DNA from: Gemmatimonadales bacterium
Lineage (GTDB): Bacteria; Gemmatimonadota; Gemmatimonadetes; Gemmatimonadales; GWC2-71-9
Direction of reading: 5' to 3'
Length of the DNA stretch: 41,724 bases
NCBI GenBank assembly: GCA_036443495.1
Contig: JAZFYL010000092.1
Location: 1 to 41,724 of the forward strand
Positions 14,286 through 29,406 of this stretch are shown one piece after another (positions within the stretch are counted from its first letter, which is position 1; every line of letters begins with the position of its first letter). Under the pieces are notes generated by a model. That model saw nothing but the letters and a program-made list of their open reading frames with translations, did no database searches and was not told the origin of the DNA. The position numbers and the translations under genes were made by a program.

Positions 14286-15073
14286 AGGTGCTCCCAGAAA
14301 AATTCGGCCGCCGGGCGCAGGACGGCCGGCGGTTCCATGAAACCGCCGAAGACGAGCCCGAGGTACACGGCAGCGGCGACCAGGGCGAGGGTCGCGACCC
14401 ACATGGGCCATTGGGGCCGGCGCCAGCGCCGTACGTTGTCGATCTCCACGGCCCAGCGCTGTTGTTCTCTGACGACCGCCTCTTCCAAATCGATCCAGGC
14501 CGCTTCCAACCTGCGGGCGGAGAGATCCAGCGCGGCGTTCCATTGGGTCAGGAGGGCACCACCTGTATCGGGTCGCTCGAGCAGTGCCGCAACCGCCTGG
14601 TCGAGGCTTTCGAGAACCTGTTCCAGGCGACCGGTGCCCTTCCCCAGGTGAGCGGTGATGGCGAGACGCTCGGCCTCGGTCGGGAGCCAGCGTTTGAGTA
14701 GCGGTGTCGGCATCCTCGAGATACAGGCGGCATCGTGGAACTGCTGTTCCAGCCGGTCGATCAGCGCCGCACTGGCGGCCGATACGGCACGACCCCAGGC
14801 GGACATCCACAAGCTGCCGTCGATGGCTCGGACAGCCTCCTCGGTCTCATCGGCTTCCACGCGATCCCGTGCCTGCCCCGCAGCTTCGAAGAGGTCGGTG
14901 GCCAAGGCCAGCCTGATGCCGTCGAGGGGCGGGTCTGACACGTGGCCGGCCCTGGTGGATGCAACCCGCCCGAGCAGGCCACCAAACTCCGGCACGGTGA
15001 GAGCCGTCTCTGACGCACCGGTCACGGGATGCAGGCCCGGGCTTGGGTTGGTTGAATCACGCGAAGATGGCAT
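14282..15073 (-). CDS. Hypothetical alpha-helical protein with C-terminal transmembrane anchor
   Basis: Fills the gap between HAD gene and acpS in operon orientation; Ala/Leu/Glu-rich helices, RRWRRP then ~20 hydrophobic residues; start uncertain (GTG at 15025 plausible). Confidence 0.75.
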   Translation of the reverse strand: MPSSRDSTNPSPGLHPVTGASETALTVPEFGGLLGRVASTRAGHVSDPPLDGIRLALATDLFEAAGQARDRVEADETEEAVRAIDGSLWMSAWGRAVSAASAALIDRLEQQFHDAACISRMPTPLLKRWLPTEAERLAITAHLGKGTGRLEQVLESLDQAVAALLERPDTGGALLTQWNAALDLSARRLEAAWIDLEEAVVREQQRWAVEIDNVRRWRRPQWPMWVATLALVAAAVYLGLVFGGFMEPPAVLRPAAEFFWEHL

Positions 15074-15758
15074 CGATCACCGATGAGGTGTCGACCAGAT
15101 TCTCGACTACGAAGTACGCGCCGGCGGCCGACAGCTCCTCGGACGAATAGTTCCCCGTTGCCACGGCAATCGCACGGACGCCCAAGGATTGTCCGCAGGT
15201 CACGTCGGCGGGGGTATCGCCGATGATGACGATCTCCTCCCCCGTGGGGATACGGCCGAAGAAGGGCTCCGCTCGCTGAGCGGCGATCGGTGGAAGGTCC
15301 GGCCGATTGGCGGAGTCCGATCCGAAGGCCCCGACCGCGAACCGTTCCGGGTCGATGCCCACCGACCGCAACTTGAGCGCAGCCCCACGGACCAGATTAC
15401 CCGTCACGAGGCCCAGCGTCACCCGCTCGTCATCGTCGAGCAGATCGAGCAACTCCGTGGCTCCCGGCATGAGGGCCGGCCGCGGGCCGTCGGGCGAAAC
15501 CAGTTCGGCTTCCAGCAGCTCCAGATACTGCTCGGCCATGGGTTCGACCAGCGCATCGCGCGACGGTTCGTCGTGGCCCGCTTCTCGGAGCAACTCGACG
15601 ATGATCTGCGGGTCTGTCTTGCCGTCGAACCTGACCCGGCCGAATACGGCCGGGTCCCCGATCTTTTCCGATAGCACGGTTATCAGCGCCCTCCGGCCGG
15701 CGCCATTGGAAATCAACAGGGTGCCATCGATGTCGAACAAGACCAGCTTCTGTGTCAT
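15057..15758 (-). CDS. HAD-superfamily hydrolase (phosphoglycolate phosphatase-like)
   Basis: LVLFDIDGTL motif I, GKTD, LVTGN motif II, IIGDTPAD motif IV. Confidence 0.92.
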   Translation of the reverse strand: MTQKLVLFDIDGTLLISNGAGRRALITVLSEKIGDPAVFGRVRFDGKTDPQIIVELLREAGHDEPSRDALVEPMAEQYLELLEAELVSPDGPRPALMPGATELLDLLDDDERVTLGLVTGNLVRGAALKLRSVGIDPERFAVGAFGSDSANRPDLPPIAAQRAEPFFGRIPTGEEIVIIGDTPADVTCGQSLGVRAIAVATGNYSSEELSAAGAYFVVENLVDTSSVIDAIFA

Positions 15759-15879
15759 GAGTCCCCGCGGAACGTAAAACACCAAGGGCGCGATGCGTGC
15801 CCCTCACCGCAAGATAATCGCGGACGCAGACACCGTTGCCCGCATGGTTCCAATACCACCTCAAGAACGCCCGTCCAGC

Positions 15880-16059
15880 TCAGGCCTGCCCACCGGCGGC
15901 GCCCGTTCCCTGGCATTCCCGGCACAGTTCGACCCCGCGGAAATTACAGATCAGGCAGACGAAGGTGCCGCACTTGGTGCACGGATAGCCCTCGGAAGCC
16001 CGCTCTTCGCGGCCGCAAGCCCGGCACACCATGGAGTCTTTCTCATGCAGTTCCGTCAT
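15880..16059 (-). CDS. Unannotated 59-aa cysteine-rich zinc-finger microprotein (4 x CxxC)
   Basis: Hand translation: MTELHEKDSMVCRACGREERASEGYPCTKCGTFVCLICNFRGVELCRECQGTGAAGGQA*; AGGAG Shine-Dalgarno 7 nt upstream, overlapping the regulator stop; below the ORF-track cutoff. Confidence 0.85.
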   Translation of the reverse strand: MTELHEKDSMVCRACGREERASEGYPCTKCGTFVCLICNFRGVELCRECQGTGAAGGQA

Positions 16060-16068
16060 GGCTCTCTC

Positions 16069-17415
16069 CTAGAGCTTGATGGAGTAGCGCTTGATCTTGT
16101 TGATCAGGGTGGCCCGGGAAATTGAGAGTTCAGCCGCGGATCGGGTCCGGTTGCCTGAATGGTGACGCAAGGTCCGCTCGATGTGCTGGCGTTCCAGATC
16201 ATCGAGGGTCAGCGGAGTGTGCCGGCGGTCTCCCATGCCATACCGGGCCCGGAATTCACCGGGCAAATGCTCCACCTTGATCTGTTCCTGCCCGCGCCCC
16301 AGAATCATGGCTCGCTCGAGGACGTTGTGCATCTCCCGGATGTTGCCGGGCCAGGCGTAGCTGAGCAAGCGCTCCAGTGCTTCCGGAGCGATCGCGGTCG
16401 GTGCCCCGGACAACTCTCCTGCCAACTCGTCGAGTAGCCGGTTGATCAGCGCCAATTGATCTTCCTGGGGCCGCTCACGCACCGGCGGCAGATTGAGCGG
16501 CATCACGCTCAAGCGATAGTACAAATCCTCCCGCATACGGTCGGCGTCAACCTCGGCCTTCATGTCCTTGCTGGTGCCGGCGATGAGGCGGACGTCCACG
16601 GTGACCTCCCGGGTGCCTCCCATCCGCCGGAAGCTCTTGGTTTCCAGGAGCTTCAGAAGTTTGGGCTGCAACTCCGGGGTCAGGTCGGCGATGTCCTCAA
16701 TGAAAATGGTTCCCTCGTCGGCGATCTCGAACAGGCCCTGTTTCCGATCTCGTGCTCCGGCGAACGCCCCTTTTTCGTGGCCAAACAGCTCGGAGTCCAG
16801 AACGGTGGCCGATAACGCGCCACAGACTACCTCCACGAACGGCGCCTTGCACCTCGGACTCATATCGTGAATCAGCCGGGCCACCCAACCCTTCCCGGTC
16901 CCGCTTTCGCCCTGCAGGAGCACGGTGGTCCTCTCACTGAGGGCCAGCAACCCGACTTGGTGAGCGAGATCTTTCATCAATGAGGAAGTCCCCAGGGAGT
17001 CCACTCCATGAGTCGGGGCCCCTTGAGACTGTAGGGCCTGGTTCACCCGACGCAGGCGGGCTTTGTCCGCGACACGCGCCGTCGCCGCCGCCAGGTGATC
17101 CATGGCCACCGGTTTAGTGAGGAAGTTCTCCGCACCCATCTGGATCGCCTGGACCGCCGTCGACACGTCTCCCATGCCGGTCAACAGCACGACGAGCGCA
17201 TCTTGCTCCCGAAGCCGTTCGAGCACCTCCATGCCGTCCATGCCCGGCAACTGGAGGTCCAGGATGACGACGTCGGGCCGGAGCCTTTCATACGTCGCCA
17301 AACCGGCTTCCCCGTTCAGTTCGCGTGTCACTTCATACCCCAACTGCTCCAGGTACTTTCCGATGGACCGCAGGACGTCTACATCGTCGTCGATGAGCAG
17401 AACGGATGCCGCCAT
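16069..17415 (-). CDS. NtrC-family response regulator (REC-AAA+-Fis HTH) with atypical GAFAGA and Walker B
   Basis: LLIDDD, ILDLQLP, FLTKP receiver; GESGTGK Walker A; REDLYYRL; WPGNIRE; C-terminal GNRTRSAAEL.ISRATL HTH. Confidence 0.95.
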   Translation of the reverse strand: MAASVLLIDDDVDVLRSIGKYLEQLGYEVTRELNGEAGLATYERLRPDVVILDLQLPGMDGMEVLERLREQDALVVLLTGMGDVSTAVQAIQMGAENFLTKPVAMDHLAAATARVADKARLRRVNQALQSQGAPTHGVDSLGTSSLMKDLAHQVGLLALSERTTVLLQGESGTGKGWVARLIHDMSPRCKAPFVEVVCGALSATVLDSELFGHEKGAFAGARDRKQGLFEIADEGTIFIEDIADLTPELQPKLLKLLETKSFRRMGGTREVTVDVRLIAGTSKDMKAEVDADRMREDLYYRLSVMPLNLPPVRERPQEDQLALINRLLDELAGELSGAPTAIAPEALERLLSYAWPGNIREMHNVLERAMILGRGQEQIKVEHLPGEFRARYGMGDRRHTPLTLDDLERQHIERTLRHHSGNRTRSAAELSISRATLINKIKRYSIKL

Positions 17416-17430
17416 TATCTACCTCGCTCC

Positions 17431-20214
17431 TTAACCTGAGTGTGTCGGCAGCTCAAACCAGAATCGGGCCCCGCCGGTGGGGAGATTCTCGGCGTGAATG
17501 CCTCCCCCGTGTGCCTCGATGATGCCGTGGGAGATGGCTAGACCCAACCCGGTCCCCTCCCCCACCACCTTGGTGGTGTAGAACGGTTCGAAGACCCTGC
17601 CCAGTGAATCCGGATGGACTCCCGGTCCCGAATCGATTACTTCGCACCCGATCATGGATCCGTCAATGTACGTCCTGATCCGGCCCACTTTGTGGTCGAC
17701 TTGGTCCATGGCCTGTCGGGCGTTAACGATCAGATTGTCGAGCACTTGCCGGATCTGGGTGGGATCGGCATTCACCACCGGCAGATTGGGCTCGAGTCGA
17801 GTCTCCCACCGAACGGCATCGCCCCGCGCCTCCTGTTCGAGTGCCAAGGACTCATCGACAATGCGGTTGAGATCGACATCTTGGCGTTTCAGCGGTACCT
17901 GCCGGGCCGACGTCAACAGATCCTCAATAATGCTAGCGGCCCGCGCCCCTTCATGCCGAATGCTCTCCAGCACGCGCTGGGTGCCTTCGTCGAGCGGTTG
18001 CTCGATAATGAGGGTTTGCGCGAGTGCGTTGATGCCTGCGATGGGGTTGTTCAACTCGTGGGCCACTCCCGAGACCACCTGCCCCAGGGCAGCCATCTTC
18101 TCGGCATGAATCAGGCGCTCCCGCAGTAGCTGCTCGTCGGTAACGTCACGGACGATGGCCAGCACCGTCGGCTGATCGCCGCCGTAAGTCATTGGAGTAG
18201 CGACGACAGCCGCTTCGCGTACGGCTCCGTCGCTCCGGCGAAAGCGATAGAAGAACTCGCGCGTCTTGCCCGCGAGGCTCGATTCGAGGTAGCGCCGTAC
18301 CGCTTCCTGGTCGGCGGGTTCGACGAATTCCACCATCTGGGCGTCGGGCTCGAGCTGCTCGAGCCCCAGCATCTGCAGGGCGGCCCGGTTGGCCGAGAGC
18401 AACCGTCCCTCTCGATCGAGGGTGTAGATCCCCACCGGGGCGGCGGCGAAGAGGGTCCGGTAGCGGGCCTCGGACCGTCGCAATTCCGACGCCGCCTCGT
18501 GCTCCTGCGTCACGTCCCGCATCACCGCCACCTCGCCACCCTCCTTCAGCGGTGCACTGGACACTGCCACCCGGCGCACGGAATCATCGGGACGCCGGCA
18601 CAACCCTTCGTAGCGTTGCGCCGAAGCAGAAGAGCGCTGATCCCGGTCCGCAGCCGGAAGGAGGTCGTTCAAGATCTGGCCCGTCAGCGCACTCTCGTCC
18701 ACGGCGAACAAGGAGATCGCCGCGGGATTGGCAAAACTGATCCGGCCTGCGGTGTCGGTCAGCACGATTGCATCGTGCGCCGTCTCGACCACCAGGCGGA
18801 ACCGCTTTTCGAGCCTCACCAAATCGGTCAGGTCATCGACGGCAACGACAAACCGATCATCCGGCAGTGGGGTAGCCGTGACGACCAGGAGTCGGCCATC
18901 ACGAGCATCCAACATGGCGGCGGCCGGCCCCTGCGCGATGCGCGCTTCCGTCAGCGGGTCGTCCGGGGGGTCGGGCCAATCCAGGAAGACGCTGGTGAAA
19001 TCGAATCCCGGGAGCGCGGTCACCGGGATCTTGGCCAGATCCGCGACAAACCGGTTGGCCCGGAAGATGATCCCTGCCTTGTCCGTGACGGCCAGGCCGC
19101 TGCCGGCAGCGTCGAATGCGGTTTGCCAGTCCTGTTTTATCCGGGTGACCTGGTCCAGCAGCTTGCTCTTGCCGATCGCCAGGGCGGCTTGATCGGCGAA
19201 TGCGACCGCGAGGCGGCGCTCCTCCAGCGGGTACTCCCGTGGCTGGTCGTGATAGAACGCCAACGAGCCGATGGTCTCGCCCGCAAACACCAGCGGCAGG
19301 AGCGCCACGGCCAGGAATCCTTCGGAAGCCACAGCGGCCGCCAGGGGATTGCCGGGACGCCCCTGGACACGAGAGGCAAACACCGGCTCACGGGCCACCA
19401 GTCGTCGCGTAGAACTCAGCGAATTAGCCAGTCGCTCCACTTCCCGCACGTATGTCTCTGACAAGCCCAACGCCACCACACACTCGGTGCGTTGCTGATC
19501 CGAGTGGAACAGGAACACCCCGGCCCGCTGCGCGTCGAAAACGCGTCGGCCTTCATCGGCGACGAAGCGCATCGTCCGCTCGGCATCCTCCACGCCCGTA
19601 AGCGCATGGGTGATCCGACCCAAGGCGTCCAACTGCTCCAACCGGGTGATCAGATCCGCCCTGGTCCTGAGCGCACTGACCGCGGCGCCCAATTGATCGG
19701 CGATGGCACTGGCCAGCAGCATCTGGTCTTCCCCGGGAGTTCGCCAGGAGTCGGGCGACTGGGTCATGGTGAGAGTGCCAACGATCTGCTCGCCCTGGTG
19801 CATGGGGATCACGAACCCTGCTCTCGGAACCCGTTCGCGGGTGGGATCGATTGTGAGCTCGGGCTCACCGTCGAAGTTCTCGCTGATGCGCGTCTCGCCC
19901 GACCGGGCCACCGCAACTTCGACCGAGCGTTCACCCAGCAAGTCTCCGGCCCGATGAAGCATGGTCGCCAGACCGATCGCGCCGAGTACCACCAAGGTAT
20001 CGGAGGACTCGTCGAGCCCGCCCGTCACCATGGCACCGTCTAACCCGAGCCCGTGCAGGGCCGCCTCCAATCCTCGGTGTACCGCTTCGTCGAGGGTTTC
20101 GATGCCGGGAAGATCCCGAGCCAGCTCCAGAACCACGCGCGCCCCGGCGAGGGTACGCTCCATCGCCTCCAGATCGGCGGCGGCCGGGGTAGATGGTTGG
20201 GAAGATCGGGTCAT
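17431..20214 (-). CDS. Soluble sensor histidine kinase (GAF-GAF-PAS-PAS-PAS-HisKA-HATPase)
   Basis: H-box VAHELNNP, N-box QVLDNLIVNA, DSGPG, FEPFYTTK, GTGLGL; PAS starts (FRANR, FANPAA, SANRAA); GAF-type A.ADQ.A.A ends; no obvious TM. Confidence 0.93.
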   Translation of the reverse strand: MTRSSQPSTPAAADLEAMERTLAGARVVLELARDLPGIETLDEAVHRGLEAALHGLGLDGAMVTGGLDESSDTLVVLGAIGLATMLHRAGDLLGERSVEVAVARSGETRISENFDGEPELTIDPTRERVPRAGFVIPMHQGEQIVGTLTMTQSPDSWRTPGEDQMLLASAIADQLGAAVSALRTRADLITRLEQLDALGRITHALTGVEDAERTMRFVADEGRRVFDAQRAGVFLFHSDQQRTECVVALGLSETYVREVERLANSLSSTRRLVAREPVFASRVQGRPGNPLAAAVASEGFLAVALLPLVFAGETIGSLAFYHDQPREYPLEERRLAVAFADQAALAIGKSKLLDQVTRIKQDWQTAFDAAGSGLAVTDKAGIIFRANRFVADLAKIPVTALPGFDFTSVFLDWPDPPDDPLTEARIAQGPAAAMLDARDGRLLVVTATPLPDDRFVVAVDDLTDLVRLEKRFRLVVETAHDAIVLTDTAGRISFANPAAISLFAVDESALTGQILNDLLPAADRDQRSSASAQRYEGLCRRPDDSVRRVAVSSAPLKEGGEVAVMRDVTQEHEAASELRRSEARYRTLFAAAPVGIYTLDREGRLLSANRAALQMLGLEQLEPDAQMVEFVEPADQEAVRRYLESSLAGKTREFFYRFRRSDGAVREAAVVATPMTYGGDQPTVLAIVRDVTDEQLLRERLIHAEKMAALGQVVSGVAHELNNPIAGINALAQTLIIEQPLDEGTQRVLESIRHEGARAASIIEDLLTSARQVPLKRQDVDLNRIVDESLALEQEARGDAVRWETRLEPNLPVVNADPTQIRQVLDNLIVNARQAMDQVDHKVGRIRTYIDGSMIGCEVIDSGPGVHPDSLGRVFEPFYTTKVVGEGTGLGLAISHGIIEAHGGGIHAENLPTGGARFWFELPTHSG

Positions 20215-20218
20215 CGGC

Positions 20219-21115
20219 TCACGGAACGAATACGTGGATGGCGCCGGGAACCACCGTCGCGGTAAACGGGGTGGAGCCCCCTGGGTCGCCGTCTAGTTGT
20301 ACGGGTTGCACGGGGGTGGAGTGCACGTGGATGGACTGCCCGCGGATGTACCCCACATAGCCGGCGCTGGTGGGATTCTCGGTCCCGTACCGCAGTAAAT
20401 CCCACGCCGCCAGCACTCCGTCGCCGAGGCTGTCGGCCCGAACCACGATGACGTCCAGCAACCCATCTTCGGGCGAGATACCCTGGCGGAACTTAATGAA
20501 GGGTGGAACGACTTCGGCGCAGTTGGCCACGATGACCAGCGCCGCCCTGGCCTCGTATTCCTGTCCGTCGACGGTGATGACGTGGAACGCGCTCTTGAGT
20601 TGGTCGAGTAGCCGATAGATGGTTGCGACATAGGCGCCCATGCCCCAGCGATGCTTGTCGGCGAGAGGCGTTTCGATCATGACACGGGCGTCGAACCCGG
20701 CTCCACACGCAACCGCGAAGTAGTGGGTTTCGCCCTGGCATTCCAGCCGGCCGAGATCGATCTGGCGAGTGGTGCCCGATAATATCGTCTCGGCTGCCCG
20801 GGAAGGAGATCCGGGTACCCGCAGGTTGCCCGCCAGCAGGTTCCCCGTCCCGCCCGGGATGAGGCCCAGCTTGACGTCCGTCCCGACCAGGGCCGATGCA
20901 GCTTGCATGGTGGTGCCATCACCGCCAAACACAGCCACCGCATCGTACTGCTGTTCGACCGCCTCCTGTGCCAGCCGGCGGGCGTCTCCGGGTCCCCCGG
21001 TGGCCTGCACATCAACTGTCCACCCCCCACCACGCAAGACGTTGACCACCGCGTTGACGGCGGCCGGTCGCGTCCGAGCCGCCGCGGGGTTGGTGATGAG
21101 AAGCGTGCGTGCCAT
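20219..21115 (-). CDS. Diacylglycerol/lipid kinase family protein (YegS/DagK-like)
   Basis: ITNPAA, GGDGT, IPGGTGNLLA, G.GFDA, DGLLDV, QLDGD motifs. Confidence 0.93.
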   Translation of the reverse strand: MARTLLITNPAAARTRPAAVNAVVNVLRGGGWTVDVQATGGPGDARRLAQEAVEQQYDAVAVFGGDGTTMQAASALVGTDVKLGLIPGGTGNLLAGNLRVPGSPSRAAETILSGTTRQIDLGRLECQGETHYFAVACGAGFDARVMIETPLADKHRWGMGAYVATIYRLLDQLKSAFHVITVDGQEYEARAALVIVANCAEVVPPFIKFRQGISPEDGLLDVIVVRADSLGDGVLAAWDLLRYGTENPTSAGYVGYIRGQSIHVHSTPVQPVQLDGDPGGSTPFTATVVPGAIHVFVP

Positions 21116-21116
21116 G

Positions 21117-24100
21117 CTAGAACTCCCGCTCCCACAGGAGGTCGACACCGATCTGGTAGCGGGTGCCGCGGCCGACATCCACCTGCGTGGTCAGTTCACA
21201 CGCTTCGACCGGTTCGAGACTGAGCGAAGAACGCCAGTGCGTGCCGAACCGCCACTCGAGACTGGCCCCCAGCGCCTTGTAGTTGAGCAGTTGGTCGTTG
21301 GGGCAGAATCCCGCGCTCAGGGTAATGAACATCGCCCGGGTGAGACGCCACCCCGCCGAAATCGTGGTTGACGTCACCGAACTGCCCCGTATCGGTGTCG
21401 CGCCCGGACGAATCTGCAGGTAATCGATGGGGAGCCCGATATCGGAAATCAAAGTGCGTTCCACTTCGGAGGAGAGGGCCGAGGAGAGCGCGGCCAGACC
21501 CCAGGCCAACGCCCCTTCCTCGCTCGTCTGGTTCTCGCCCGAACTGAGATCGAAGGCCGGCTTCCCGAACATGAGGAAGGACACCAGGTCGGATTCGGAA
21601 ATCGGCGGGCCGTCGCGGTTGGTCAGCCGGAGCCGAGGGGCACGCATCGTGCCGCTGATGGTGGCGACGATCGGGATCTGTTCGCTCCGATCCACCGGCG
21701 TGACCTTGTGCTCGGCCACGATATCCAACTGCGCGTCCAGATCGGGCGTCCCGAAATATCTGATGCTACCGCGGATGACATCGAAATTCCGGTTCACCAA
21801 ATTGCCGATCCGCAGAGTATAGCGACCACGCAGGGTCTCGAGGTCGCCAGACAGCCGGTACTCGCGCCGGATCTTGTTGACGCGCAGATCGCCACGCAGG
21901 AGGATGTTGGCCTCGTTGGAACGTAGGTAGAAATCGTCCTGCACTCGGAGGTCGAGGTCGACGATCCGAAGCGAATCCAGGAACCGGTTCTGGAAGCGCG
22001 ACCCCAAGTGTCGCTCACGGATGTAGTCCAAGTCGATCAGGTCCGCGTTGGTAGGGTCTTCCAGGTCTAGCACTTGCTTGCCGACCAGATCGGCGAAATG
22101 GAGCACCCCTCGGTTCGCGACGCCGGTTCCAGTGAGAACCGGCTGGAAAAGCGACCCAGTCAGGCGAACATCGCCCGAGGCAGCCAGGGTGAGAAAATCC
22201 GGAACGTCGATCACCAACAGGTTTTGGGCATGGATGTCGAGATTCAGCCGTGGGCTGGTCAGGCCTTCCATCCGAACCCAGCCGCCGACATCCATGAATC
22301 CGCCGTCACCACCGATGCGCAGGGTATCGATGAGAATCGAGTCGCCTACCATATGGGCGCGCCCGAGAATATCACGGAACGAGACACCCAAACCTGGTAC
22401 CCCCGTCCGGCCATTATCGATCTGCAGCATGCCCGCCAATCGGGGCTCGTCCCACGAGCCCTCAATCTGAACGTCGGCCACCAATAGGCCTCGTAAGTCC
22501 TCAACACTGTTGGTGAATGCATCGAACACGCCGAGGTCCACACTATCCGCCAACGCACGGACGTACAGCGGTCCGTTGACCCGTCGATCCGCTATCCTGG
22601 CGAGTGCCAAGTCGACCGGCAGTCTGGCCTCGATGCGCATCACCTGTTGCCCGGTGCGCCACATGAGCAGGTCCGCCAGGAGTTGCCGGTCCGCGTACTT
22701 GATCACGGCCTGGCCGAGCGGTCCGCGAAAATCAGTTAGGGTCACGTCGGCGGCTTGCGCCGAGCCCACGATGCTCGGGGATTCCCGGGTACCAGCCATC
22801 CGCATGCTGGCACTGAAGGAACCGCCCACGTTGGTCGTGTCCCACTGCAACAATCCGTACAGGTCCTTGATGCCGATGCCCAACGCTTCGAGTTGGTACT
22901 GATCTCCTCCCTGTGGTGTGATCCGGATGAATCCGGAGCCGTCCCGAGCGGTGAGATTCACTCGGGAGAGGGTCGTTCCGGTATCCGAGATGACCAGGGT
23001 GGTGGGCGTGTTCAGATCCCACTCCGTCGACACCAAGTCGGCATGTAACGTGTCCACTTCCCACCATTCGGTTCCCGATCGGCGACCACGGACACCCCCG
23101 ATGGTCACTTCTGTCGCGCGGTCCATGCCCACCATCGCCAGCCAGGCGAGTGAGTCCGGCGGTCCCTGGAGTTGGAGCCGCACCAGGGGGAATTCCAGTT
23201 TGCCGACGAGCAGCGTGTCGGCCCTCAGGCTCAGCGCGACCGACGTTTCCCGACCTCCCGACCAGGCGAGCGACCCGCGCACCGCATCGGCCTCCGTCTG
23301 TGCCAGCGCGACGTCGAAGGCGGTGATCTGGGCTACGGCTCCCAGCTCATCGAGTGAACCGTTCAAGTCCATCCTGGCTTCCAGCAAGCCTTCGAGGTAG
23401 TGCCAGTTCATGGTGTCGCGTTGAAGGCCGAATGCGTTTACCACGAGTGTGTCGAACACGCCCAGACTGTCGCTGATCAGCCCGAAAGACATCGCCCCGT
23501 TGACCGGGAGGCGCCATCCCAGATCGCCGGAGCCAGCCAGTTGGCCGCGGGCCCATTCCATGTGCAGGGTGTCGAGGTCGATGAGGCTATCCTGTGCGCC
23601 GATCTCCATCTGCAGGTTGTCGAACCGGAACTCCCGGATGGACCCCGCCCGAAGGTCTATCGACAGCCGGCCGGAGGGACCGGTAACGGTATCGGCGAGC
23701 CCGTCGAGCGTTGCGCTACCAGCCAGACGGGTCGTCGGCCCAGTGCCCAGGAGTGCCGCCAGATCGACGTCGCTGAACGTGACCTGCAACGGCCGTCCGC
23801 CGAGCCGTTCCGGCAGCAGCGAAGCCGATCCGGTGATGGCAACCGTCCCCAGTTCACCGCTGACCTCGGCGGTCACCGCCATGGCGGTTATCGGCCCCTC
23901 CATGCGCAGGTGGCCGGCGAGTTGCCCCCGGGTGCCTAGACCTGGGAAGCCCCGTCGGATGCCTTCGAAATCCAACGGCTCCAAATCGGCGTCGACCCCA
24001 AATACAAGCGTGTCCGTCCGGGTGTCGAGCCGGAACGCGCCAAACGCCTGGCTCACCGGCCGGGGCCCATCCTCATGGCGGAACACCCCGGCGAAGGAGG

Positions 24101-25520
24101 CGTTGCGCAGGGGACCGTCGAGCGTGCCGATCGCCTCCAGCCGGCCTTCCAAGAGGACCGCCGGGGCGAGTCCTCGAACGGTCCGGAGATCGATGTCGGA
24201 GTCGTGGACCTGGATACTGTCGAACACTAGCCCCAGGGAGTCGTCGATATGGATGTGCCCGTCCGCCAAGACGGAGCTGACCGGCAGGCTGTCGTGGGTC
24301 TCGTCGACAAAGACCCAATCCGCTCCGACACGGAGGTTGTCGAAGTGCCCATCCATCACGGTGATGCCGGTGAGTCGGCCGTAGAACGGCAAGCTGTCGA
24401 TGAACGGGCGGATCACATCGAGATCCAGGCGTTCGGTCCGCACGTTGAGATCGCGGAAGCCGAGCCCACGCCGGTCATCCTTGACGACGGTCAGTCGGCC
24501 CTCGATGCTCGAGCCGTCAGGGGCAGCCAACACCATGTCGCGCAACACGAACGACGCCCGGTCGCGCGATTCAGTTCGAGCGGCAAACACCGTGCGGCCT
24601 CTAAGGTCGGCGAAATCCGGGGTGATCCATCGGAAATCGACGAGGGCGGCCTGCGAGGAAGTGAAGGTGAAATCGAAGAACTCCTTCCCTTCACGGAAGG
24701 TCACCACCCCGCCTCCGGTGAGGGTGGTGTTCGGAAGGGCGGCGTGTTCCAGGGAGAATACGAGACTGTCTCCGGGGACTTGTATGCGGCCGATCGCGTG
24801 ACGGATCGACACTTGGGGGTCACTGATGTCGGCGTATAGGCTGTCGATGTCCACCGTCAGGGGTTGCCGGTCGGGCGAACTGGCGGTGACTCGCCGGAAG
24901 CGGGCGGCAAGATTGTCGATGGTGACGATCTTGCGGAAGCCCTCCGGAGTTTCCTCGATGACCCGTCCGGGCTTGGCCCGCTCACGCGCGAGCCCACGGC
25001 GGATGGCCGCCTCGCTGCGGAGGCTGTCGTCCGGGGACCACGGGGTATCGATCCGAACCCTGGCATCGTCGATCCGCACGTTCCGGAACTGGATGAGTTG
25101 CCCCGGTCCGGTGCCGCTCCCCTCGCCGATCCGAAGCACCTCCAGCAGGTTGAGCCGTCCCGACGGCATCTTCTTGAGGTATACGTCGGGCCGCTGCAAT
25201 TCCGCACTGGTCATGACGATTTGCCCGGCGAGCAACTGCGGCAATGTATAGGTCACCCGAATCGACCCGACGGTGGCAACCAGCCCGCCGGCGGTATCAC
25301 GGATGACGACATCGTCGAGCACTAGGCTTCGCACAAAACTTCCGGATATACCCCCCACGAATAGCCGCCCGCGCAGCACGCCCGCCAGCTCCGCGGAGAC
25401 AACCCTGGCGAGTAGATCCCGTCCGGGGCCCGTCGCGGTCATGGCGGTGACCACGCCAAGCACGGTTGCCAACGTACTGAGCAAGGTCACGAATACGGCG
25501 TGGGCGACGGACCGGCGCAT
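21117..25520 (-). CDS. tamB: Translocation/assembly module TamB (AsmA-like) protein
   Basis: About 1470 aa, N-terminal TM anchor, beta-rich repeats, C-terminal DUF490-like region (G.I.Y.G..D.DAQLDI, L.L...P...ESDLVSFL.FG), ends WEREF; ATG overlaps upstream Omp85 stop. Confidence 0.85.
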   Translation of the reverse strand: MRRSVAHAVFVTLLSTLATVLGVVTAMTATGPGRDLLARVVSAELAGVLRGRLFVGGISGSFVRSLVLDDVVIRDTAGGLVATVGSIRVTYTLPQLLAGQIVMTSAELQRPDVYLKKMPSGRLNLLEVLRIGEGSGTGPGQLIQFRNVRIDDARVRIDTPWSPDDSLRSEAAIRRGLARERAKPGRVIEETPEGFRKIVTIDNLAARFRRVTASSPDRQPLTVDIDSLYADISDPQVSIRHAIGRIQVPGDSLVFSLEHAALPNTTLTGGGVVTFREGKEFFDFTFTSSQAALVDFRWITPDFADLRGRTVFAARTESRDRASFVLRDMVLAAPDGSSIEGRLTVVKDDRRGLGFRDLNVRTERLDLDVIRPFIDSLPFYGRLTGITVMDGHFDNLRVGADWVFVDETHDSLPVSSVLADGHIHIDDSLGLVFDSIQVHDSDIDLRTVRGLAPAVLLEGRLEAIGTLDGPLRNASFAGVFRHEDGPRPVSQAFGAFRLDTRTDTLVFGVDADLEPLDFEGIRRGFPGLGTRGQLAGHLRMEGPITAMAVTAEVSGELGTVAITGSASLLPERLGGRPLQVTFSDVDLAALLGTGPTTRLAGSATLDGLADTVTGPSGRLSIDLRAGSIREFRFDNLQMEIGAQDSLIDLDTLHMEWARGQLAGSGDLGWRLPVNGAMSFGLISDSLGVFDTLVVNAFGLQRDTMNWHYLEGLLEARMDLNGSLDELGAVAQITAFDVALAQTEADAVRGSLAWSGGRETSVALSLRADTLLVGKLEFPLVRLQLQGPPDSLAWLAMVGMDRATEVTIGGVRGRRSGTEWWEVDTLHADLVSTEWDLNTPTTLVISDTGTTLSRVNLTARDGSGFIRITPQGGDQYQLEALGIGIKDLYGLLQWDTTNVGGSFSASMRMAGTRESPSIVGSAQAADVTLTDFRGPLGQAVIKYADRQLLADLLMWRTGQQVMRIEARLPVDLALARIADRRVNGPLYVRALADSVDLGVFDAFTNSVEDLRGLLVADVQIEGSWDEPRLAGMLQIDNGRTGVPGLGVSFRDILGRAHMVGDSILIDTLRIGGDGGFMDVGGWVRMEGLTSPRLNLDIHAQNLLVIDVPDFLTLAASGDVRLTGSLFQPVLTGTGVANRGVLHFADLVGKQVLDLEDPTNADLIDLDYIRERHLGSRFQNRFLDSLRIVDLDLRVQDDFYLRSNEANILLRGDLRVNKIRREYRLSGDLETLRGRYTLRIGNLVNRNFDVIRGSIRYFGTPDLDAQLDIVAEHKVTPVDRSEQIPIVATISGTMRAPRLRLTNRDGPPISESDLVSFLMFGKPAFDLSSGENQTSEEGALAWGLAALSSALSSEVERTLISDIGLPIDYLQIRPGATPIRGSSVTSTTISAGWRLTRAMFITLSAGFCPNDQLLNYKALGASLEWRFGTHWRSSLSLEPVEACELTTQVDVGRGTRYQIGVDLLWEREF

Positions 25521-27622
25521 CAGAACGGCTGCCCCACGGAGACTTGAATGGTGAAATTCCTCGTCCGGGCCTTCTGTACCGGGAAGGGGAGTTCGACCAG
25601 GTCTCCATCCGCAGTGCTGGCCAGCAACCGGCCGGGAGGAAAGTCGTAGGGGTTGTAGGCCACGTCGAACCGGGCAGGACCCAACGGCGTGTTGAACCGT
25701 AGGCCTGCCCCGGGGGTGATACGCAGCCGGAACGGAGCGAAGGCGTCTGGATCCCTCACCCACACCGAGCCCGCGTCGATGAACAACGCGAACCGGAGGC
25801 GCGGGGAGATGCCCGTCGGCATGCGGAGTTCGACATTGCCGACCGACAACATGTCGCCCCCGGTCGCCTCCACTTGGGCATTCTGGAGCGATTCCGGAAT
25901 GATGTTCCCAGCCGAATCGCGCCCGATCTGTGATTCATCAATGACATATACCACCGGCCCCAACTCGTTTCGGTGGTAGCCGCGCACGTCGTTGGGACCG
26001 CCCGCATAGAACCGCTGATTGGGGGGGATGAAGGCGTCGGTGCCCGATTCCAGCGTGATGCGGGGCGCGAAGATGATCCCGCCCCGCACCCGCCAACTGA
26101 GGACATATCCGCGTCGAATGGGGTGGTACCAGGCGATATCACCGATGAATCGAACGAACTCCTGCGTGGCGGAAGAACCGATGAGGCTTGAACTGATCGT
26201 CCCCTCCAGCGAAGCGACATAGCCTCTGGTCGGGTTGATGAGGTTGTTGGCCCGCGGGAGGGTCGACCGAATGGTGAAGGTGCCCAGATTCTGCCGTTGG
26301 CGCAGTTCGTCGATGTCCTCACGAGTACAGGCGTTGAAATACGCGCAGAAGTTCACGTCGCTCGCCTGGGTCAGGCCGTTCTCCCAGCGATAGACGAAAT
26401 CGAGGCCCAGCCGGGACTCGGTGATGCGCGCCAAACTCAGGCTCGTCCCGAAGTCCTCCCGCAAGAAGACCTTGGGGGAGCTGCGCCGCTCAGCGAACAG
26501 CGCGATGGCCAAGGTGTTCTTGGGTGACAGAAACGCCGGACGGCGTATAGAAGCCGTGACGTTGTAATTGAGCTCCTGCGAGAACGGATCATCGGCCAGC
26601 CATTGGCATATGTTCTCCGAAAGAGCCGTGAACGGCTCCGCCACGCCGAGTTTCGACACCCGGGTCGACAGATCGAAGATGCGCCCATTGCCCAGCATGT
26701 TTCTGGCACTCCACCCCGCACCCAACCGGATACAATCGTTGGTGCCGTATCCCCCACCCCACCGCAGTCGGTGAAACCGACCCTCGATGACGCGAACGCT
26801 GAGCGGGACAGTGTCTGAATCGAATCGGTACAGGAGCGTGTCCACGCCCACTGACACGTACCGGAACAAGTCCGACCGATACAAGTTTCGCTGGCTGCGG
26901 AACAAGTCCTCCCTCGAATAGGTCCGCCCGGGAGAAGTGGTCAACAGGGATCGGACCACCTTGGGGTTGATCGAAGCCGTCCCCACCACGTCGATCTCTC
27001 CCACCACCCCCAGAACCCCGGGATAGACGTCGAGGCCGATCGTCGCAGTGCGCTCGGTTGTGTTCATATCGAAGCTCTGAAACACCTCGGCCGAATGATA
27101 CCCGCGGTCCTGGAGGCGCCGGGCCAGCGTGTCTGCAGTTGCTACCATGAGGAATCGATTGAACGGATCTCCGACCCGCAGCGGCAGGTCCCGAATGATC
27201 CGCCGGGTGTCGGCTATGGAATCGAGGCCGAGGATCACCAGGTCGGTCACGACGACGGGGGGGCCCTCGTCGATCAAAAATGTGATGTAGATGTTGTCAT
27301 CGGTACGACGCACCAGTGTATCCACTTGGACGTCGAGATAGCCCGACTTGCGGAACAACAACTTGAGGCGCTCCACATCGGCTTCGAAGTCCCGCTGACC
27401 GAACGTGCGTTTGGCACCGAGTCCCATCCACCGGACGAACGGGCTGGTAGCGAAGAAACTCGAATTCGTGGTGGCGATGAAGGATTGAAGGGTTTCGCCA
27501 TCGATGGCCCGGTTGCCCTTGAACTTCAGTTGCCGCACTACCGGGTCCTGCAGCTGAGACTGCGCCTCTCCGGGGAACGCCGAGCACAGCAGCGGGATGA
27601 CCACGGCGATGCGGGCGGTCAC
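25520..27622 (-). CDS. Omp85-family outer membrane protein (TamA/BamA-like; POTRA repeats plus beta-barrel)
   Basis: Signal peptide, POTRA (F.GN.AI, Y/GY..V.V, I.EGP), RFYAGGPNDVRGY, GAGLRFNTPLGPARFD.A, C-terminal VGQPF; GTG start at 27622 after GGAGG (ORF track 27655). Confidence 0.92.
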   Translation of the reverse strand: MTARIAVVIPLLCSAFPGEAQSQLQDPVVRQLKFKGNRAIDGETLQSFIATTNSSFFATSPFVRWMGLGAKRTFGQRDFEADVERLKLLFRKSGYLDVQVDTLVRRTDDNIYITFLIDEGPPVVVTDLVILGLDSIADTRRIIRDLPLRVGDPFNRFLMVATADTLARRLQDRGYHSAEVFQSFDMNTTERTATIGLDVYPGVLGVVGEIDVVGTASINPKVVRSLLTTSPGRTYSREDLFRSQRNLYRSDLFRYVSVGVDTLLYRFDSDTVPLSVRVIEGRFHRLRWGGGYGTNDCIRLGAGWSARNMLGNGRIFDLSTRVSKLGVAEPFTALSENICQWLADDPFSQELNYNVTASIRRPAFLSPKNTLAIALFAERRSSPKVFLREDFGTSLSLARITESRLGLDFVYRWENGLTQASDVNFCAYFNACTREDIDELRQRQNLGTFTIRSTLPRANNLINPTRGYVASLEGTISSSLIGSSATQEFVRFIGDIAWYHPIRRGYVLSWRVRGGIIFAPRITLESGTDAFIPPNQRFYAGGPNDVRGYHRNELGPVVYVIDESQIGRDSAGNIIPESLQNAQVEATGGDMLSVGNVELRMPTGISPRLRFALFIDAGSVWVRDPDAFAPFRLRITPGAGLRFNTPLGPARFDVAYNPYDFPPGRLLASTADGDLVELPFPVQKARTRNFTIQVSVGQPF

Positions 27623-27906
27623 TATACCGCCCCTCCCGGGCCGCAACCGGGTCACGACCTCGACTGGCTCAAGAAGGAGCCTTGTAATGTTCCATTATGG
27701 AACTGGTATTCAGCAGTCCGCATGTAGGTAACATCGCTAACTTCAGCGAGTTACGCCACGCTGTCAAAAAATTGGTCTGTGCCGCCGTCTCTCCGCGAGT
27801 AGCAGTTCCGGGAGCGCCTCCTCAGCCGATCATCACGACTATCTTACGGGCCCGAACCCATCGGGTATCCCATCACCCCTCCTCCCCCTTGGCACAGGAT
27901 GGATCG

Positions 27907-29406
27907 ATGATCTTTCCGGCGTTTCGTTGGCCTAGTCTGTGGCAGCCCCCGGTGTTGTTGGTGCTTGTTCTTGGCCTGGCCGGTAGTGCCTTCGGTCAGA
28001 GCAGCGCCGGTGTAGACGAACGGCTCGATACGCCGCCATTCGACCGGTACCTCTGGGGAGTCGTCCTGACGGACACCGACGGCACGACCCTGTACGACCG
28101 GAATGCCGGGCGTTTGTTCATGCCGGCAAGCAACACCAAGCTCATCGTCGCGGCGGCGGCAGTGGCCCTGCTGCCGGCAGAGTGGACGGTAACCACCAGC
28201 ATCTATGCGACCGGCCCGGTCGTGGACGGGACGGTACGGGGCGACCTCATCCTCTACGGGCGCGGGGACCCGACCTTCAGCAATCGCTGTTACGGTGTCG
28301 ACACGACTCTGGCCGGTGCCTGTCAGCGGGATCCGCTGGCCCAGGTACGGTTGCTGGCCTCCCAACTCCGCGAGCGCAGTATCCGGCAGATCGCCGGCAA
28401 CATCATCGGCGATGGAAGTTATTTCGAACCCACCATGGTCCACCCCGCGTGGGAGCGGTACGACCTGAATTGGTGGTATGCCGCGCCGGTCTCGGGCCTG
28501 GGGCTCAACGACAACGCCATCGATATCACCTATCGTCCCGGCGCGACGGTCGGAGCCCCACCGATCATCTCCTTCACCCCGGACTTCGGGAACATCGCCT
28601 TCGCCAACCGCAGCAGAACCAGTGAGCCTCGCACCCGACGCACGATCGACTTCTTTCGCACGCCGGGGAGCCTGGCGATCTGGTCCGAGGGAGAGTTGCC
28701 GATGGGCAGCCGCGAACGGACGGAATACTTCGCCCTGCCGGACCCCAATCAGTTCACCGCCGAAGCGCTCCGCTTCGCGCTCGCGGACGAGGGGATCTCG
28801 GTGAGTGGGGGCACGACCTCGACCACCGACTCACTCCGGTTCCGTCAGGCGCGGCAGTCCCCCCCCCTGGCCGAAGTGGTGTCGCGCCCGCTCCGGGATT
28901 GGGTCTTCCCCATTCTGAACACCAGTCAGAATTGGTTTGCGGAGATGCTGCTGAAACAACTGGGGAAGCAGTTTGCCAACGAGGGATCGTGGAAGGCCGG
29001 CCTCGAGGTGGAGCGACGGTTCCTCATCGACTCGGTGGGCATCGATTCGACGGAGTTCAGCCTGTCCGACGGATCGGGCCTGGCCGCCTCCAACCTGGTC
29101 ACCCCTCAAGCCTTTGCGGCGTTGCTGGCCTACATGTGGCGGCACCCCAATTTCGAGACCTTCGCCGCAGCCCTCCCACAATCGGGCAACCGGGGGTCAC
29201 TGAGTTCCCGCTTCATCGGCACACCGCTGGAAGGTCGCGTGCGAGCCAAAACCGGGAGCATTGCCAAGGTCAACAGCCTCACCGGCTACATCGAGCGCAG
29301 TGACGGCCGCCCCTGGATCTTCTCGGTCATCGCCAACCACCACACTCAGGGCTACTCCACCATGATCAACTACATCGACACCGTCGTCGTCGATCTGGGG
29401 AACTAG
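27907..29406 (+). CDS. dacB: D-alanyl-D-alanine carboxypeptidase/endopeptidase (PBP4, peptidase S13)
   Basis: PASNTK (SxxK), G.GDPT, SQN (SxN), DGSGL...N, AKTGS (KTG); signal peptide; start estimated at 27907. Confidence 0.94.
   Translation: MIFPAFRWPSLWQPPVLLVLVLGLAGSAFGQSSAGVDERLDTPPFDRYLWGVVLTDTDGTTLYDRNAGRLFMPASNTKLIVAAAAVALLPAEWTVTTSIYATGPVVDGTVRGDLILYGRGDPTFSNRCYGVDTTLAGACQRDPLAQVRLLASQLRERSIRQIAGNIIGDGSYFEPTMVHPAWERYDLNWWYAAPVSGLGLNDNAIDITYRPGATVGAPPIISFTPDFGNIAFANRSRTSEPRTRRTIDFFRTPGSLAIWSEGELPMGSRERTEYFALPDPNQFTAEALRFALADEGISVSGGTTSTTDSLRFRQARQSPPLAEVVSRPLRDWVFPILNTSQNWFAEMLLKQLGKQFANEGSWKAGLEVERRFLIDSVGIDSTEFSLSDGSGLAASNLVTPQAFAALLAYMWRHPNFETFAAALPQSGNRGSLSSRFIGTPLEGRVRAKTGSIAKVNSLTGYIERSDGRPWIFSVIANHHTQGYSTMINYIDTVVVDLGN

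What the first reader, a model, noticed from the sequence alone, without database searches (positions are those of the whole stretch)
15880..16059. Hidden 59-aa microprotein with FYVE-like 8-cysteine spacing directly behind the atypical regulator
Seen: an ORF absent from the supplied track, with a strong AGGAG RBS overlapping the regulator stop. Sequence MTELHEKDSMVCRACGREERASEGYPCTKCGTFVCLICNFRGVELCRECQGTGAAGGQA, pattern C-x2-C-x11-C-x2-C-x4-C-x2-C-x7-C-x2-C. Established: eukaryotic FYVE-type cross-brace fingers have about C-x2-C-x12-C-x2-C-x4-C-x2-C-x(long)-C-x2-C with a CG.vfC..C core, matched here by CGTFVCLIC. The PI3P-binding R(R/K)HHCR patch is absent. Inference: a minimal stand-alone two-zinc finger, possibly an accessory or redox/metal-sensing partner of the two-component system. 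This is the most novel-looking element in the window.
Basis: partly seen in the sequence, partly recalled or inferred. Interest (0 to 1): 0.75.

Follow-up and report, generated by a model that had tools for sequence, protein, structure and literature searches.

The report
Conserved eight-cysteine microprotein, unnamed family
A real, strongly conserved 59-residue protein with eight cysteines, found in only one order of Gemmatimonadota, ends an envelope and signalling operon; it is a new, unnamed small metal-finger family, not a FYVE domain, and its partner is unknown.

Summary
The ORF is real (window 15880-16059, minus strand, 59 aa, AGGAG 6 nt before the ATG and overlapping the regulator's stop). 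It is a gene. There are 313 protein clusters of relatives. It was found in 239 of 401 Gemmatimonadota genomes, all in one order (f1 165/166, f2 68/93, f3 5/5, other families 0/136), mostly as one copy. All 8 Cys and 15 other residues are invariant in 39 sequences, and core dN/dS is about 0.17.

No Pfam or NCBIfam model reaches its cut-off. The best hit is a sub-threshold match to C1_2 (DC1) in 26 of 71 members; FYVE gives none. The AlphaFold model is confident in the core, but its only structural matches are weak (Z at most 3.5) and go to two-zinc fingers such as PHD, AN1, ZZ, RING, FYVE and C1.

Where the upstream NtrC-type regulator exists, the gene follows it within a few bases (44 of 51 loci). 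That regulator's sigma-54 contact motif GAFTGA has decayed. In at least 17 genomes the regulator is truncated or gone while the microprotein stays behind tamB-yegS.

Metal content, finger topology and partner remain untested.

The parts
15880..16059 (-). 59-aa eight-Cys microprotein (P0002), four CxxC pairs, about 6.4 kDa, calculated pI 5.7
   Evidence: ORF and translation. Relatives. Invariant columns. Purifying selection. AlphaFold2 mean pLDDT 82.4, core blocks 90-93. Mass and pI.
16066..16070 (-). AGGAG ribosome-binding site, 6 nt before the ATG, overlapping the regulator's TAG stop
   Evidence: Read directly. Short or overlapping stop-start junctions recur in relatives.
16069..17415 (-). 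NtrC-type response regulator (receiver, sigma-54-type AAA+, Fis-type HTH). Its L1 motif reads GAFAGA, not GAFTGA, and its Walker B region reads ED where the orthologues' consensus has DE
   Evidence: Pfam Sigma54_activat 6.8e-58, Response_reg 6.2e-27, HTH_8 7.6e-12. Alignment of 35 orthologues shows the motif is not conserved.
17431..20214 (-). Sensor histidine kinase with GAF, PAS, HisKA and HATPase_c domains; 15 nt before the regulator
   Evidence: Pfam; ORF coordinates.
20219..21178 (-). YegS-like lipid kinase (DAGK_cat + YegS_C); 4 nt before the kinase gene
   Evidence: Pfam DAGK_cat 2.2e-27, YegS_C 3.1e-16. It is the constant upstream neighbour of the microprotein where the regulator is missing.
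21117..25763 (-). TamB-like protein (longest ORF; true start not determined)
   Evidence: Pfam TamB 2.3e-40.
25520..27655 (-). TamA/Omp85-like outer-membrane protein with POTRA repeats (longest ORF)
   Evidence: Pfam Omp85 3e-39, POTRA 1.8e-25.
15057..15758 (-). HAD-family phosphatase, next gene downstream. The probable start is the ATG at 15758, 121 nt after the microprotein's stop
   Evidence: Pfam HAD_2 and Hydrolase_like. Sequence. Orthologue downstream in most loci.
15779..15791 (-). Weak terminator-like hairpin between the microprotein and the HAD gene
   Evidence: Consensus scan only: 5 sites found against 3.5 expected in shuffles. Not evidence of function.

Best explanation
The ORF encodes a genuine cytoplasmic 59-aa protein of an unnamed family restricted to one order of Gemmatimonadota. 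Its eight invariant cysteines, in four CxxC pairs, most likely bind two metal ions, probably zinc. The arrangement is probably interleaved (pairs 1+3 and 2+4), as in PHD, AN1, ZZ, RING, C1 and FYVE modules. The invariant charged loop between the first two pairs (residues 18-26) is the likely contact surface. The gene is the last, translationally coupled cistron of a tamB-yegS-kinase-regulator string. I think it most likely acts as a small protein-binding subunit of that operon's output. It would be made in step with the NtrC-type regulator, whose sigma-54 contact loop has decayed, and would modulate or relay that regulator's activity by binding either the regulator or the transcription machinery. 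Because it survives the loss of the regulator, it must also have a partner or role that does not need the regulator. Shown: the gene is real, conserved, selected and coupled. Inferred: metal, topology, binding, partner.
For: Real and selected: 313 clusters; 239 of 401 genomes, confined to one order; 23 invariant positions in 39 sequences; dN/dS 0.17; only 54 hits among 1.84 billion representatives, so a compact family. Fold: pLDDT above 90 over residues 11-50. The weak structural matches are almost all two-zinc fingers. There are sub-threshold C1_2 hits in 26 of 71 members. Coupling: regulator stop to microprotein start is 9 nt here. 44 of 51 loci have the regulator directly upstream. In 93 of 97 genomes with both genes listed, they share contig and strand, 84 of them at most 120 nt apart. 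Four of five genomes without the microprotein also lack the regulator's orthologue. Decay of the regulator's GAFTGA motif. Passages of bioRxiv 10.1101/2023.06.06.543975 report that bEBPs lacking GAFTGA act at sigma-70 promoters.
Against: The microprotein stays in place without the regulator. YegS is followed directly by the microprotein in 12 of 20 loci chosen for a weak regulator match, and truncated regulators (REC+HTH, AAA+HTH, HTH only) occur in 7 more. TamB is followed directly by the microprotein in one genus and in G029, where the best regulator match is only 38-41% identical. One genome keeps the regulator but has no microprotein. The microprotein (60-80% identity across families) is more conserved than the regulator (45-76%). 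No fusion to any partner exists. Metal binding and topology are not shown; the abstract of PMC11241148 says such motifs can be metal-free or hold another metal and that AlphaFold2 cannot tell. I could not read the model's coordinates.
Confidence: 0.35

Rival explanations
1. The microprotein belongs functionally to the tamA-tamB-yegS envelope and lipid core of the operon, not to the two-component system. It would be a C1/DC1-like finger that works with the DAGK_cat lipid kinase or another envelope-lipid protein. The kinase and regulator would be an optional insert between yegS and the microprotein.
For: The constant upstream neighbours are TamB and YegS. In 12 of 20 loci YegS is followed directly by the microprotein. 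The only recurring Pfam signal is C1_2 (26 of 71 at E<=0.01; 14 of 70 at E<=0.001). PKC-type C1 domains appear among the weak fold matches. The abstract of PMC6089211 describes a eukaryotic diacylglycerol kinase that combines C1 domains with this catalytic domain. Four genomes without the microprotein gave no YegS match with a single-protein query.
Against: No member reaches the C1_2 cut-off (best 24.2 bits against 26). YegS orthologues are common in five sister families that lack the microprotein (f4 6/7, f5 2/2, f6 29/30, f8 4/4, f9 3/4), with no CxxC-rich ORF beside them in 5 of 5 loci. In one genus YegS lies elsewhere, for example 115 kb away in G052. Some genomes with the microprotein lack a YegS match at 1e-60. 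The conserved loop is charged, unlike a membrane-inserting C1 loop.
Confidence: 0.2
2. It is a thiol-based redox or metal sensor, or a metal buffer. Oxidation or metal shortage would release the metal from the eight cysteines and switch the protein's fold or binding, as in zinc-thiolate switches.
For: Eight invariant Cys in 59 residues. It sits next to a GAF-PAS sensor kinase. Marine-sediment metagenomes hold the locus.
Against: No direct evidence. Invariance of many non-Cys surface residues points to a specific macromolecular partner rather than simple buffering. It is mostly single-copy and shows no metal-uptake context beyond a distant FTR1 gene.
Confidence: 0.15
3. It is a rubredoxin-like iron protein: the CxxCG knuckles bind Fe, and it carries electrons.
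For: Two CxxCG knuckles can be read directly from the sequence.
Against: No rubredoxin Pfam or NCBIfam hit. Fold matches are zinc fingers. No redox-enzyme partner lies in the operon.
Confidence: 0.04
4. It is a bacterial FYVE domain that binds phosphoinositide.
For: FYVE structures appear among the weak matches at Z 2.3-3.0.
Against: No FYVE HMM hit. The basic ligand-binding patch is absent from the sequence. Other finger classes score equal or higher.
Confidence: 0.01
5. It is a chance ORF, not a gene.
For: None beyond its small size.
Confidence: 0.01

Closest known systems
Two-zinc interleaved (cross-brace) fingers: PHD, AN1, ZZ, RING, FYVE
   Same: Eight ligands in four pairs, with only 4 residues between pairs 2 and 3. 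Size is about 45-50 residues. The predicted knuckles and helix starts fit. These classes fill the weak fold-match lists: PHF13 PHD Z 3.5, rmsd 3.0 over 45; Cuz1 AN1 Z 3.3, rmsd 3.5 over 49; p62 ZZ Z 2.9; HOIP RING1 Z 2.9; Leishmania FYVE Z 3.0.
   Different: All matches are far below significance (no Z>=5; Foldseek best E 0.5). There is no sequence-family hit. All ligands are Cys. It is bacterial and stand-alone rather than a domain of a larger eukaryotic protein. The topology is not verified.
C1 / DC1 domains (Pfam PF03107 C1_2)
   Same: This is the only recurring HMM signal: 26 of 71 members at E<=0.01, always aligning residues about 5-40 to profile positions 13-47 of 48. The spacing x2, x11, x2, x4, x2, x7 is close to the C1 motif as I recall it. 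PKC C1B domains appear at TM about 0.43 and 28% identity.
   Different: All hits are below the gathering score (own protein 16.2 bits, best member 24.2, cut-off 26). The His ligands of C1 are Cys here, and there is an extra final CxxC. The loop is charged rather than hydrophobic and lipid-inserting.
Archaeal C(P)XCG zinc-finger micro-proteins (Haloferax volcanii, e.g. HVO_2753)
   Same: Stand-alone proteins under 70 aa with CxxCG motifs (two here). They are a prokaryotic class whose partners are mostly unknown (abstract of PMC11241148).
   Different: No detectable homology. That class is a description, not a family. Their metal content varies, which warns against assuming two zinc ions here.
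Small zinc-binding regulators of transcription machinery (CsfB/Gin sigma-G inhibitor; TraR/DksA)
   Same: Tiny Cys4-type proteins that bind sigma factors or RNA polymerase: a functional analogy for a modulator encoded next to a regulator. CsfB appears at Z 2.4 and TraR at E 0.56 in the PDB sequence search.
   Different: Both matches are at noise level. There is no evidence that this protein binds polymerase.
bEBPs lacking GAFTGA (Caulobacter NtrC, Rhodobacter capsulatus NtrC, NtrX, VspR): for the neighbouring regulator
   Same: It has the receiver, AAA+ and Fis-HTH architecture with a decayed L1 motif. Such proteins are reported to act at sigma-70 promoters (passages of bioRxiv 10.1101/2023.06.06.543975).
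   Different: Here the motif is substituted or degenerate rather than deleted. None of those systems is described in the passages I read as having a coupled zinc-finger microprotein.

Membership tests
FYVE (Pfam PF01363) | Match to the family HMM | tested here: not met
   No FYVE hit for P0002 at E<=1. None among 71 family members at E<=0.01.
   The stretch before C27 is an acidic/basic loop without His-His, and it is invariant across the family.
FYVE (Pfam PF01363) | Eight zinc ligands with interleaved spacing | tested here: inconclusive
   The spacing is present, but it is shared by PHD, AN1, C1 and RING. The pairing could not be read from the model.
FYVE (Pfam PF01363) | Structural similarity standing above other folds | tested here: inconclusive
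   FYVE chains score Z 2.3-3.0, tied with or below PHD 3.5 and AN1 3.3.
C1_2 / DC1 (Pfam PF03107) | Score at or above the gathering cut-off (26 bits) | tested here: not met
   Own protein 16.2 bits. Best of 70 relatives 24.2 bits. 14 of 70 at E<=0.001; 26 of 71 at E<=0.01.
C1_2 / DC1 (Pfam PF03107) | His ligands at the first and sixth ligand positions (recalled C1 motif) | tested here: not met
   The sixth-position ligand is Cys35 or Cys38. No conserved His lies before C12.
Zinc ribbon / double zinc ribbon (PF13240, PF18912) | Match to the family HMM | tested here: not met
   E 0.067 and 0.24, far below the cut-offs.
C(P)XCG micro-protein class (descriptive) | Under 70 aa with at least two CxxCG motifs | tested here: met
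   59 aa, with CxxCG at C12-G16 and C27-G31. This is a description, not homology.
Metal-binding zinc finger (any) | Bound metal, two per chain | not testable with these tools
   This needs ICP-MS or spectroscopy. The abstract of PMC11241148 warns that prediction cannot decide it.
Sigma-54-dependent activator (for the neighbouring regulator) | Sigma54_activat AAA+ domain | tested here: met
   PF00158, 6.8e-58.
Sigma-54-dependent activator (for the neighbouring regulator) | Conserved GAFTGA loop that contacts sigma-54 | tested here: not met
   GAFAGA here, GAFTDA in most of family f1, and unrecognisable in many others.

The most novel reading that the evidence does not exclude
The microprotein is a free-standing bacterial C1/DC1-like lipid-sensing finger that partners the DAGK_cat lipid kinase encoded just upstream. 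That would make it a split prokaryotic counterpart of the C1 + catalytic-domain design of eukaryotic diacylglycerol kinases, working in a TamAB-linked envelope-lipid circuit.
Probability: 0.07. Interest if true: 0.8.

Novelty: new member of a known kind. Interest (0 to 1): 0.45.

Why it matters
Small proteins are often missed in annotation. This one is among the most conserved genes of its neighbourhood, and in the genomes searched it was found only in one order, whose members here are mostly uncultured. It has no family model and no studied relative. It gives a defined target for asking three things: how an NtrC-type regulator that has lost its sigma-54 contact loop delivers its output, what a bacterial stand-alone two-metal finger binds, and whether the tamAB-yegS envelope operon has a cytoplasmic accessory factor. 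It also deserves a family model so that annotation pipelines stop missing or mislabelling it; one source calls a member 'ribosomal protein L37E'.

Tried and rejected
**Complex prediction.** A three-chain job (regulator + YegS + microprotein, each as an alignment) scored 0.00 in both runs. The tool's verdict was 'no answer', so it is not evidence either way.

**RNA evidence.** Four metatranscriptome-labelled runs hold only fragments of the stretch. One 156-nt contig (labelled as possibly RNA) covers 15754-15909, which includes the last 30 nt of the ORF. Nothing spans the core, so there is no statement on expression.

**Sigma-54 promoter scan.** The window gave 37 matches against 40 expected: no signal.

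**Terminator scan.** Only a weak hairpin lies after the gene.

**Structure and sequence libraries.**
- PDB sequence search: nothing below E 0.17.
- Foldseek PDB: nothing at E<=0.001.
- VIA wide search and second look: best Z 3.3 and 3.5.
- NCBIfam: nothing.
- ESM Atlas: only unnamed Gemmatimonadota clusters, and no structure search was possible.

**Fusions.** The 'longer' search gave one 320-aa chimera with the downstream NlpC/P60 gene. The long hits (P0164, P0175, P0177, P0156, P0159) read as wrong-frame or chimeric calls.

**Sister families.** No CxxC-rich ORF lies within 1.5 kb of YegS in 5 of 5 genomes.

**Earlier findings of this scan.** Nothing was shown.

**Literature.** The searches 'sigma-54 / zinc finger / small protein / enhancer-binding protein' and 'Gemmatimonadota / zinc finger' (2 papers, by title and abstract start on other subjects) found nothing on this family. 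I consulted no supplementary files.

**Finger topology.** I could not read the model's coordinates, so the Cys pairing was not measured.

Full report
**Observation.** The minus strand of window 15880-16059 carries an ATG-started ORF of 59 codons. The cysteines fall as C-x2-C-x11-C-x2-C-x4-C-x2-C-x7-C-x2-C. AGGAG (16070-16066) overlaps the TAG stop of the upstream gene and lies 6 nt before the ATG.

The upstream gene (16069-17415) is an NtrC-type response regulator with receiver, sigma-54-type AAA+ and Fis-type HTH domains. Before it lies a GAF-PAS histidine kinase (17431-20214). After the microprotein comes a HAD phosphatase. Further upstream on the same strand are a YegS-like DAGK_cat lipid kinase, TamB and TamA. 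The gaps are 4 nt (YegS to kinase), 15 nt (kinase to regulator) and 9 nt (regulator to microprotein). The gap from the microprotein to the HAD gene is 121 nt.

**Is it a gene?** Yes.
- A word-indexed search of 5.8 billion proteins returned 313 clusters at E<=0.01. The 120 listed are 54-86 aa long and are nearly all called 'hypothetical protein'. Three carry Gemmatimonadales or Gemmatimonadetes names.
- An exhaustive HMMER pass over 1.84 billion representatives found only 54 hits at E<=0.001, so the family is compact.
- In 39 aligned members all 8 Cys are invariant, as are D8, M10, R13, A14, E19-P26, T32, F33 and G42.
- A profile search of 401 genomes of the phylum found it in 239. These were f1 165/166, f2 68/93 and f3 5/5, all of one order, and 0 of 136 in families f4-f12. 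It is mostly single-copy, and the window's own assembly has one copy.
- All 55 loci I pulled have an intact frame with eight Cys.
- Over the 42-codon core of 52 distinct sequences, invariant residues use 2-5 synonymous codons. Median dS is about 1.0, dN 0.18 and dN/dS 0.17 (1050 of 1326 pairs with pS<0.7).

These tallies include genomes flagged as unpublished (G057, G157, G182, and in later searches G495 and G097). Locus L025 (G057) is one of the loci counted. No claim depends on them alone.

**What kind of protein?** It has no signal peptide-like or membrane stretch; the longest run of small or hydrophobic residues is 6. Calculated pI is 5.7 and mass 6.4 kDa.

No Pfam or NCBIfam model reaches its cut-off. 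The one recurring signal is PF03107 C1_2 (DC1). The own protein scores 16.2 bits. 26 of 71 members match at E<=0.01 and 14 of 70 at E<=0.001. The best is 24.2 bits against a cut-off of 26, always over the same register. No FYVE hit appears anywhere.

AlphaFold2 with a 71-row alignment gives mean pLDDT 82.4, with 90-93 for residues 11-50 and pTM 0.61. The model has short strands around the first two CxxC knuckles, and helices that begin at the third and fourth pairs.

Fold matches are all weak. Foldseek against the PDB finds nothing at E<=0.001. The independent VIA search peaks at Z 3.3 (AN1) and its second look at Z 3.5 (PHD). These weak lists consist almost wholly of two-zinc fingers (PHD, AN1, ZZ, RING, FYVE, C1) plus a few ribosomal zinc ribbons.

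Only four residues separate pairs 2 and 3, and pairs 3 and 4 sit at helix starts. From this I infer an interleaved two-metal finger. I could not read the coordinates, so the pairing is not shown. The metal is not shown either. The abstract of PMC11241148 reports that archaeal CxxCG micro-proteins can be zinc-bound, metal-free or hold another metal, and that AlphaFold2 cannot tell.

**FYVE.** Membership fails. There is no HMM hit, the basic ligand patch is absent, and structural scores are no better than for other finger classes.

**Link to the two-component system.**
- Among 51 non-own loci from 50 genomes, 44 have the regulator's stop at most 201 nt before the first Cys codon. In 32 of those 44 it is at most 48 nt before, which means a stop-start distance of about 15 nt or an overlap.
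- I compared the place tables of two wider searches (top 150 rows each). In 93 of 97 genomes with both genes listed, the two share contig and strand with the regulator upstream, and 84 of them lie within 120 nt. Two of the four exceptions look like contig breaks.
- Four of five genomes without the microprotein have only paralogue-level regulator matches, 38-43% identical.

**The regulator is atypical.** In 35 orthologues the sigma-54-contacting GAFTGA motif is not conserved. It reads GAFAGA here, GAFTDA in most of f1, and is unrecognisable elsewhere. The Walker B acidic pair also varies. Passages of bioRxiv 10.1101/2023.06.06.543975 state that bEBPs lacking this motif (Caulobacter and Rhodobacter NtrC, NtrX, VspR) act at sigma-70 promoters. 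Sigma-54 itself was not found in this 87.8%-complete assembly, but it is present in 5 of 5 relatives tested.

**Independence from the regulator.** The dependence does not hold the other way.
- In one f2 genus and in G029 the microprotein directly follows TamB, and the best regulator match is only 38-41% identical.
- I then fetched 20 loci from genomes whose regulator match was missing or weak, or lay on another contig than the microprotein. In 12, YegS is followed directly by the microprotein. In 5 the regulator is reduced to REC+HTH, one of these with a remnant of the AAA+ lid. In 1 it is AAA+HTH and in 1 HTH alone. One locus was too short.
- Locus L012 shows the REC+HTH form by Pfam.
- Conversely, G204 keeps YegS and the regulator but has no microprotein ORF.

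So the microprotein is the constant element and the signalling genes are dispensable. It is also the best conserved gene of the block: 60-80% identity across families, against 45-76% for the regulator and 34-54% for YegS.

**YegS.** YegS is older and wider than the microprotein. Its orthologues occur in f4, f5, f6, f8 and f9, with no Cys-rich ORF beside them in 5 of 5 loci. The microprotein is therefore an order-specific addition.

**Mechanism.**
- My best reading (about 0.35) is a small metal-stabilised protein-binding module. It would be made in step with the decayed NtrC-type regulator and would modulate or relay its output. It must also have a partner that does not need the regulator.
- The main rival (about 0.2) ties it to the TamAB-YegS lipid and envelope core, possibly as a C1-like companion of the lipid kinase. 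The abstract of PMC6089211 notes that a eukaryotic diacylglycerol kinase joins C1 domains to this catalytic domain. This is the boldest reading the data allow, but the C1 signal is sub-threshold and the phyletic link with YegS is loose.
- A redox or metal switch (about 0.15) and a rubredoxin-like iron protein (about 0.04) are untested.
- No fusion proteins exist to point at a partner.

**Dead ends.** The complex prediction gave no verdict. RNA contigs are too fragmentary to speak to expression. The sigma-54 promoter scan showed no enrichment. Literature searches found nothing on this family, and earlier notes of this scan held nothing.

**Verdict.**
- The FYVE label is rejected, while the 'two-zinc stand-alone finger' idea is plausible but unproven.
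- The 'partner of the two-component system' reading is only partly supported.
- It is a new, unnamed family of a known kind, the small prokaryotic metal-finger micro-proteins.
- It is of moderate interest because of its extreme conservation, narrow range and unusual genomic company.

Noticed in passing
window 16069-17415 (-); alignment A3: The regulator's orthogroup has lost the sigma-54 contact motif. It reads GAFAGA here, GAFTDA in most of f1, and is unrecognisable in many f2 members. The Walker B acidic pair also varies (ED here). The C-terminal Fis-type HTH is almost invariant. This suggests a sigma-54-independent NtrC-type regulator.
   Followed up: partly
L012, L059-L063, L071, L075 (relatives): There is a series of decayed regulators in the same slot: REC+HTH without AAA+, AAA+HTH without REC, and HTH alone. 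All are still followed at once by the microprotein. The 3' end of the regulator gene may be kept because the microprotein's translation depends on it.
   Followed up: partly
L037, L043, L048, L049 (one f2 genus); P0072, P0131; also P0105, P0106, P0142, L046: A subset of family members carries a C-terminal tail that ends in a short Trp-containing acidic motif (D-W-P-E-H, or W-L-x-D/E). The D-W-P-E-H form occurs in the genus where the regulator is missing. It could be a docking peptide for another partner.
   Followed up: no
window 20219-27655 (-): tamA, tamB, a yegS-like lipid kinase, the kinase, the regulator and the microprotein form one co-directional string with 4-15 nt gaps. A D-Ala-D-Ala carboxypeptidase (27697-29406, +) diverges from it. 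In relatives an NlpC/P60 hydrolase, an EamA transporter or an S58 peptidase sits between the microprotein and the HAD gene.
   Followed up: partly
whole assembly G000: No sigma-54 DNA-binding domain (PF04552) was found in this 87.8%-complete assembly. Five of five near-complete relatives have one, so it is probably just unassembled here.
   Followed up: yes
L057 (G204:C2): One genome keeps YegS and the regulator orthologue (52% identity), but the microprotein slot holds a 154-aa ORF on the opposite strand instead.
   Followed up: partly
L044 (G047:C10): A second copy of the microprotein lies in one genome between an M14 carboxypeptidase-like gene and a DPP-IV/S9 peptidase gene, away from the usual operon.
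   Followed up: no
window 11703-13838 (-): A 711-aa ORF joins cytochrome c domains to an FTR1 iron permease domain.
   Followed up: no
P0025: One source names a family member 'ribosomal protein L37E'. This is probably a mislabel caused by the Cys pattern.
   Followed up: no
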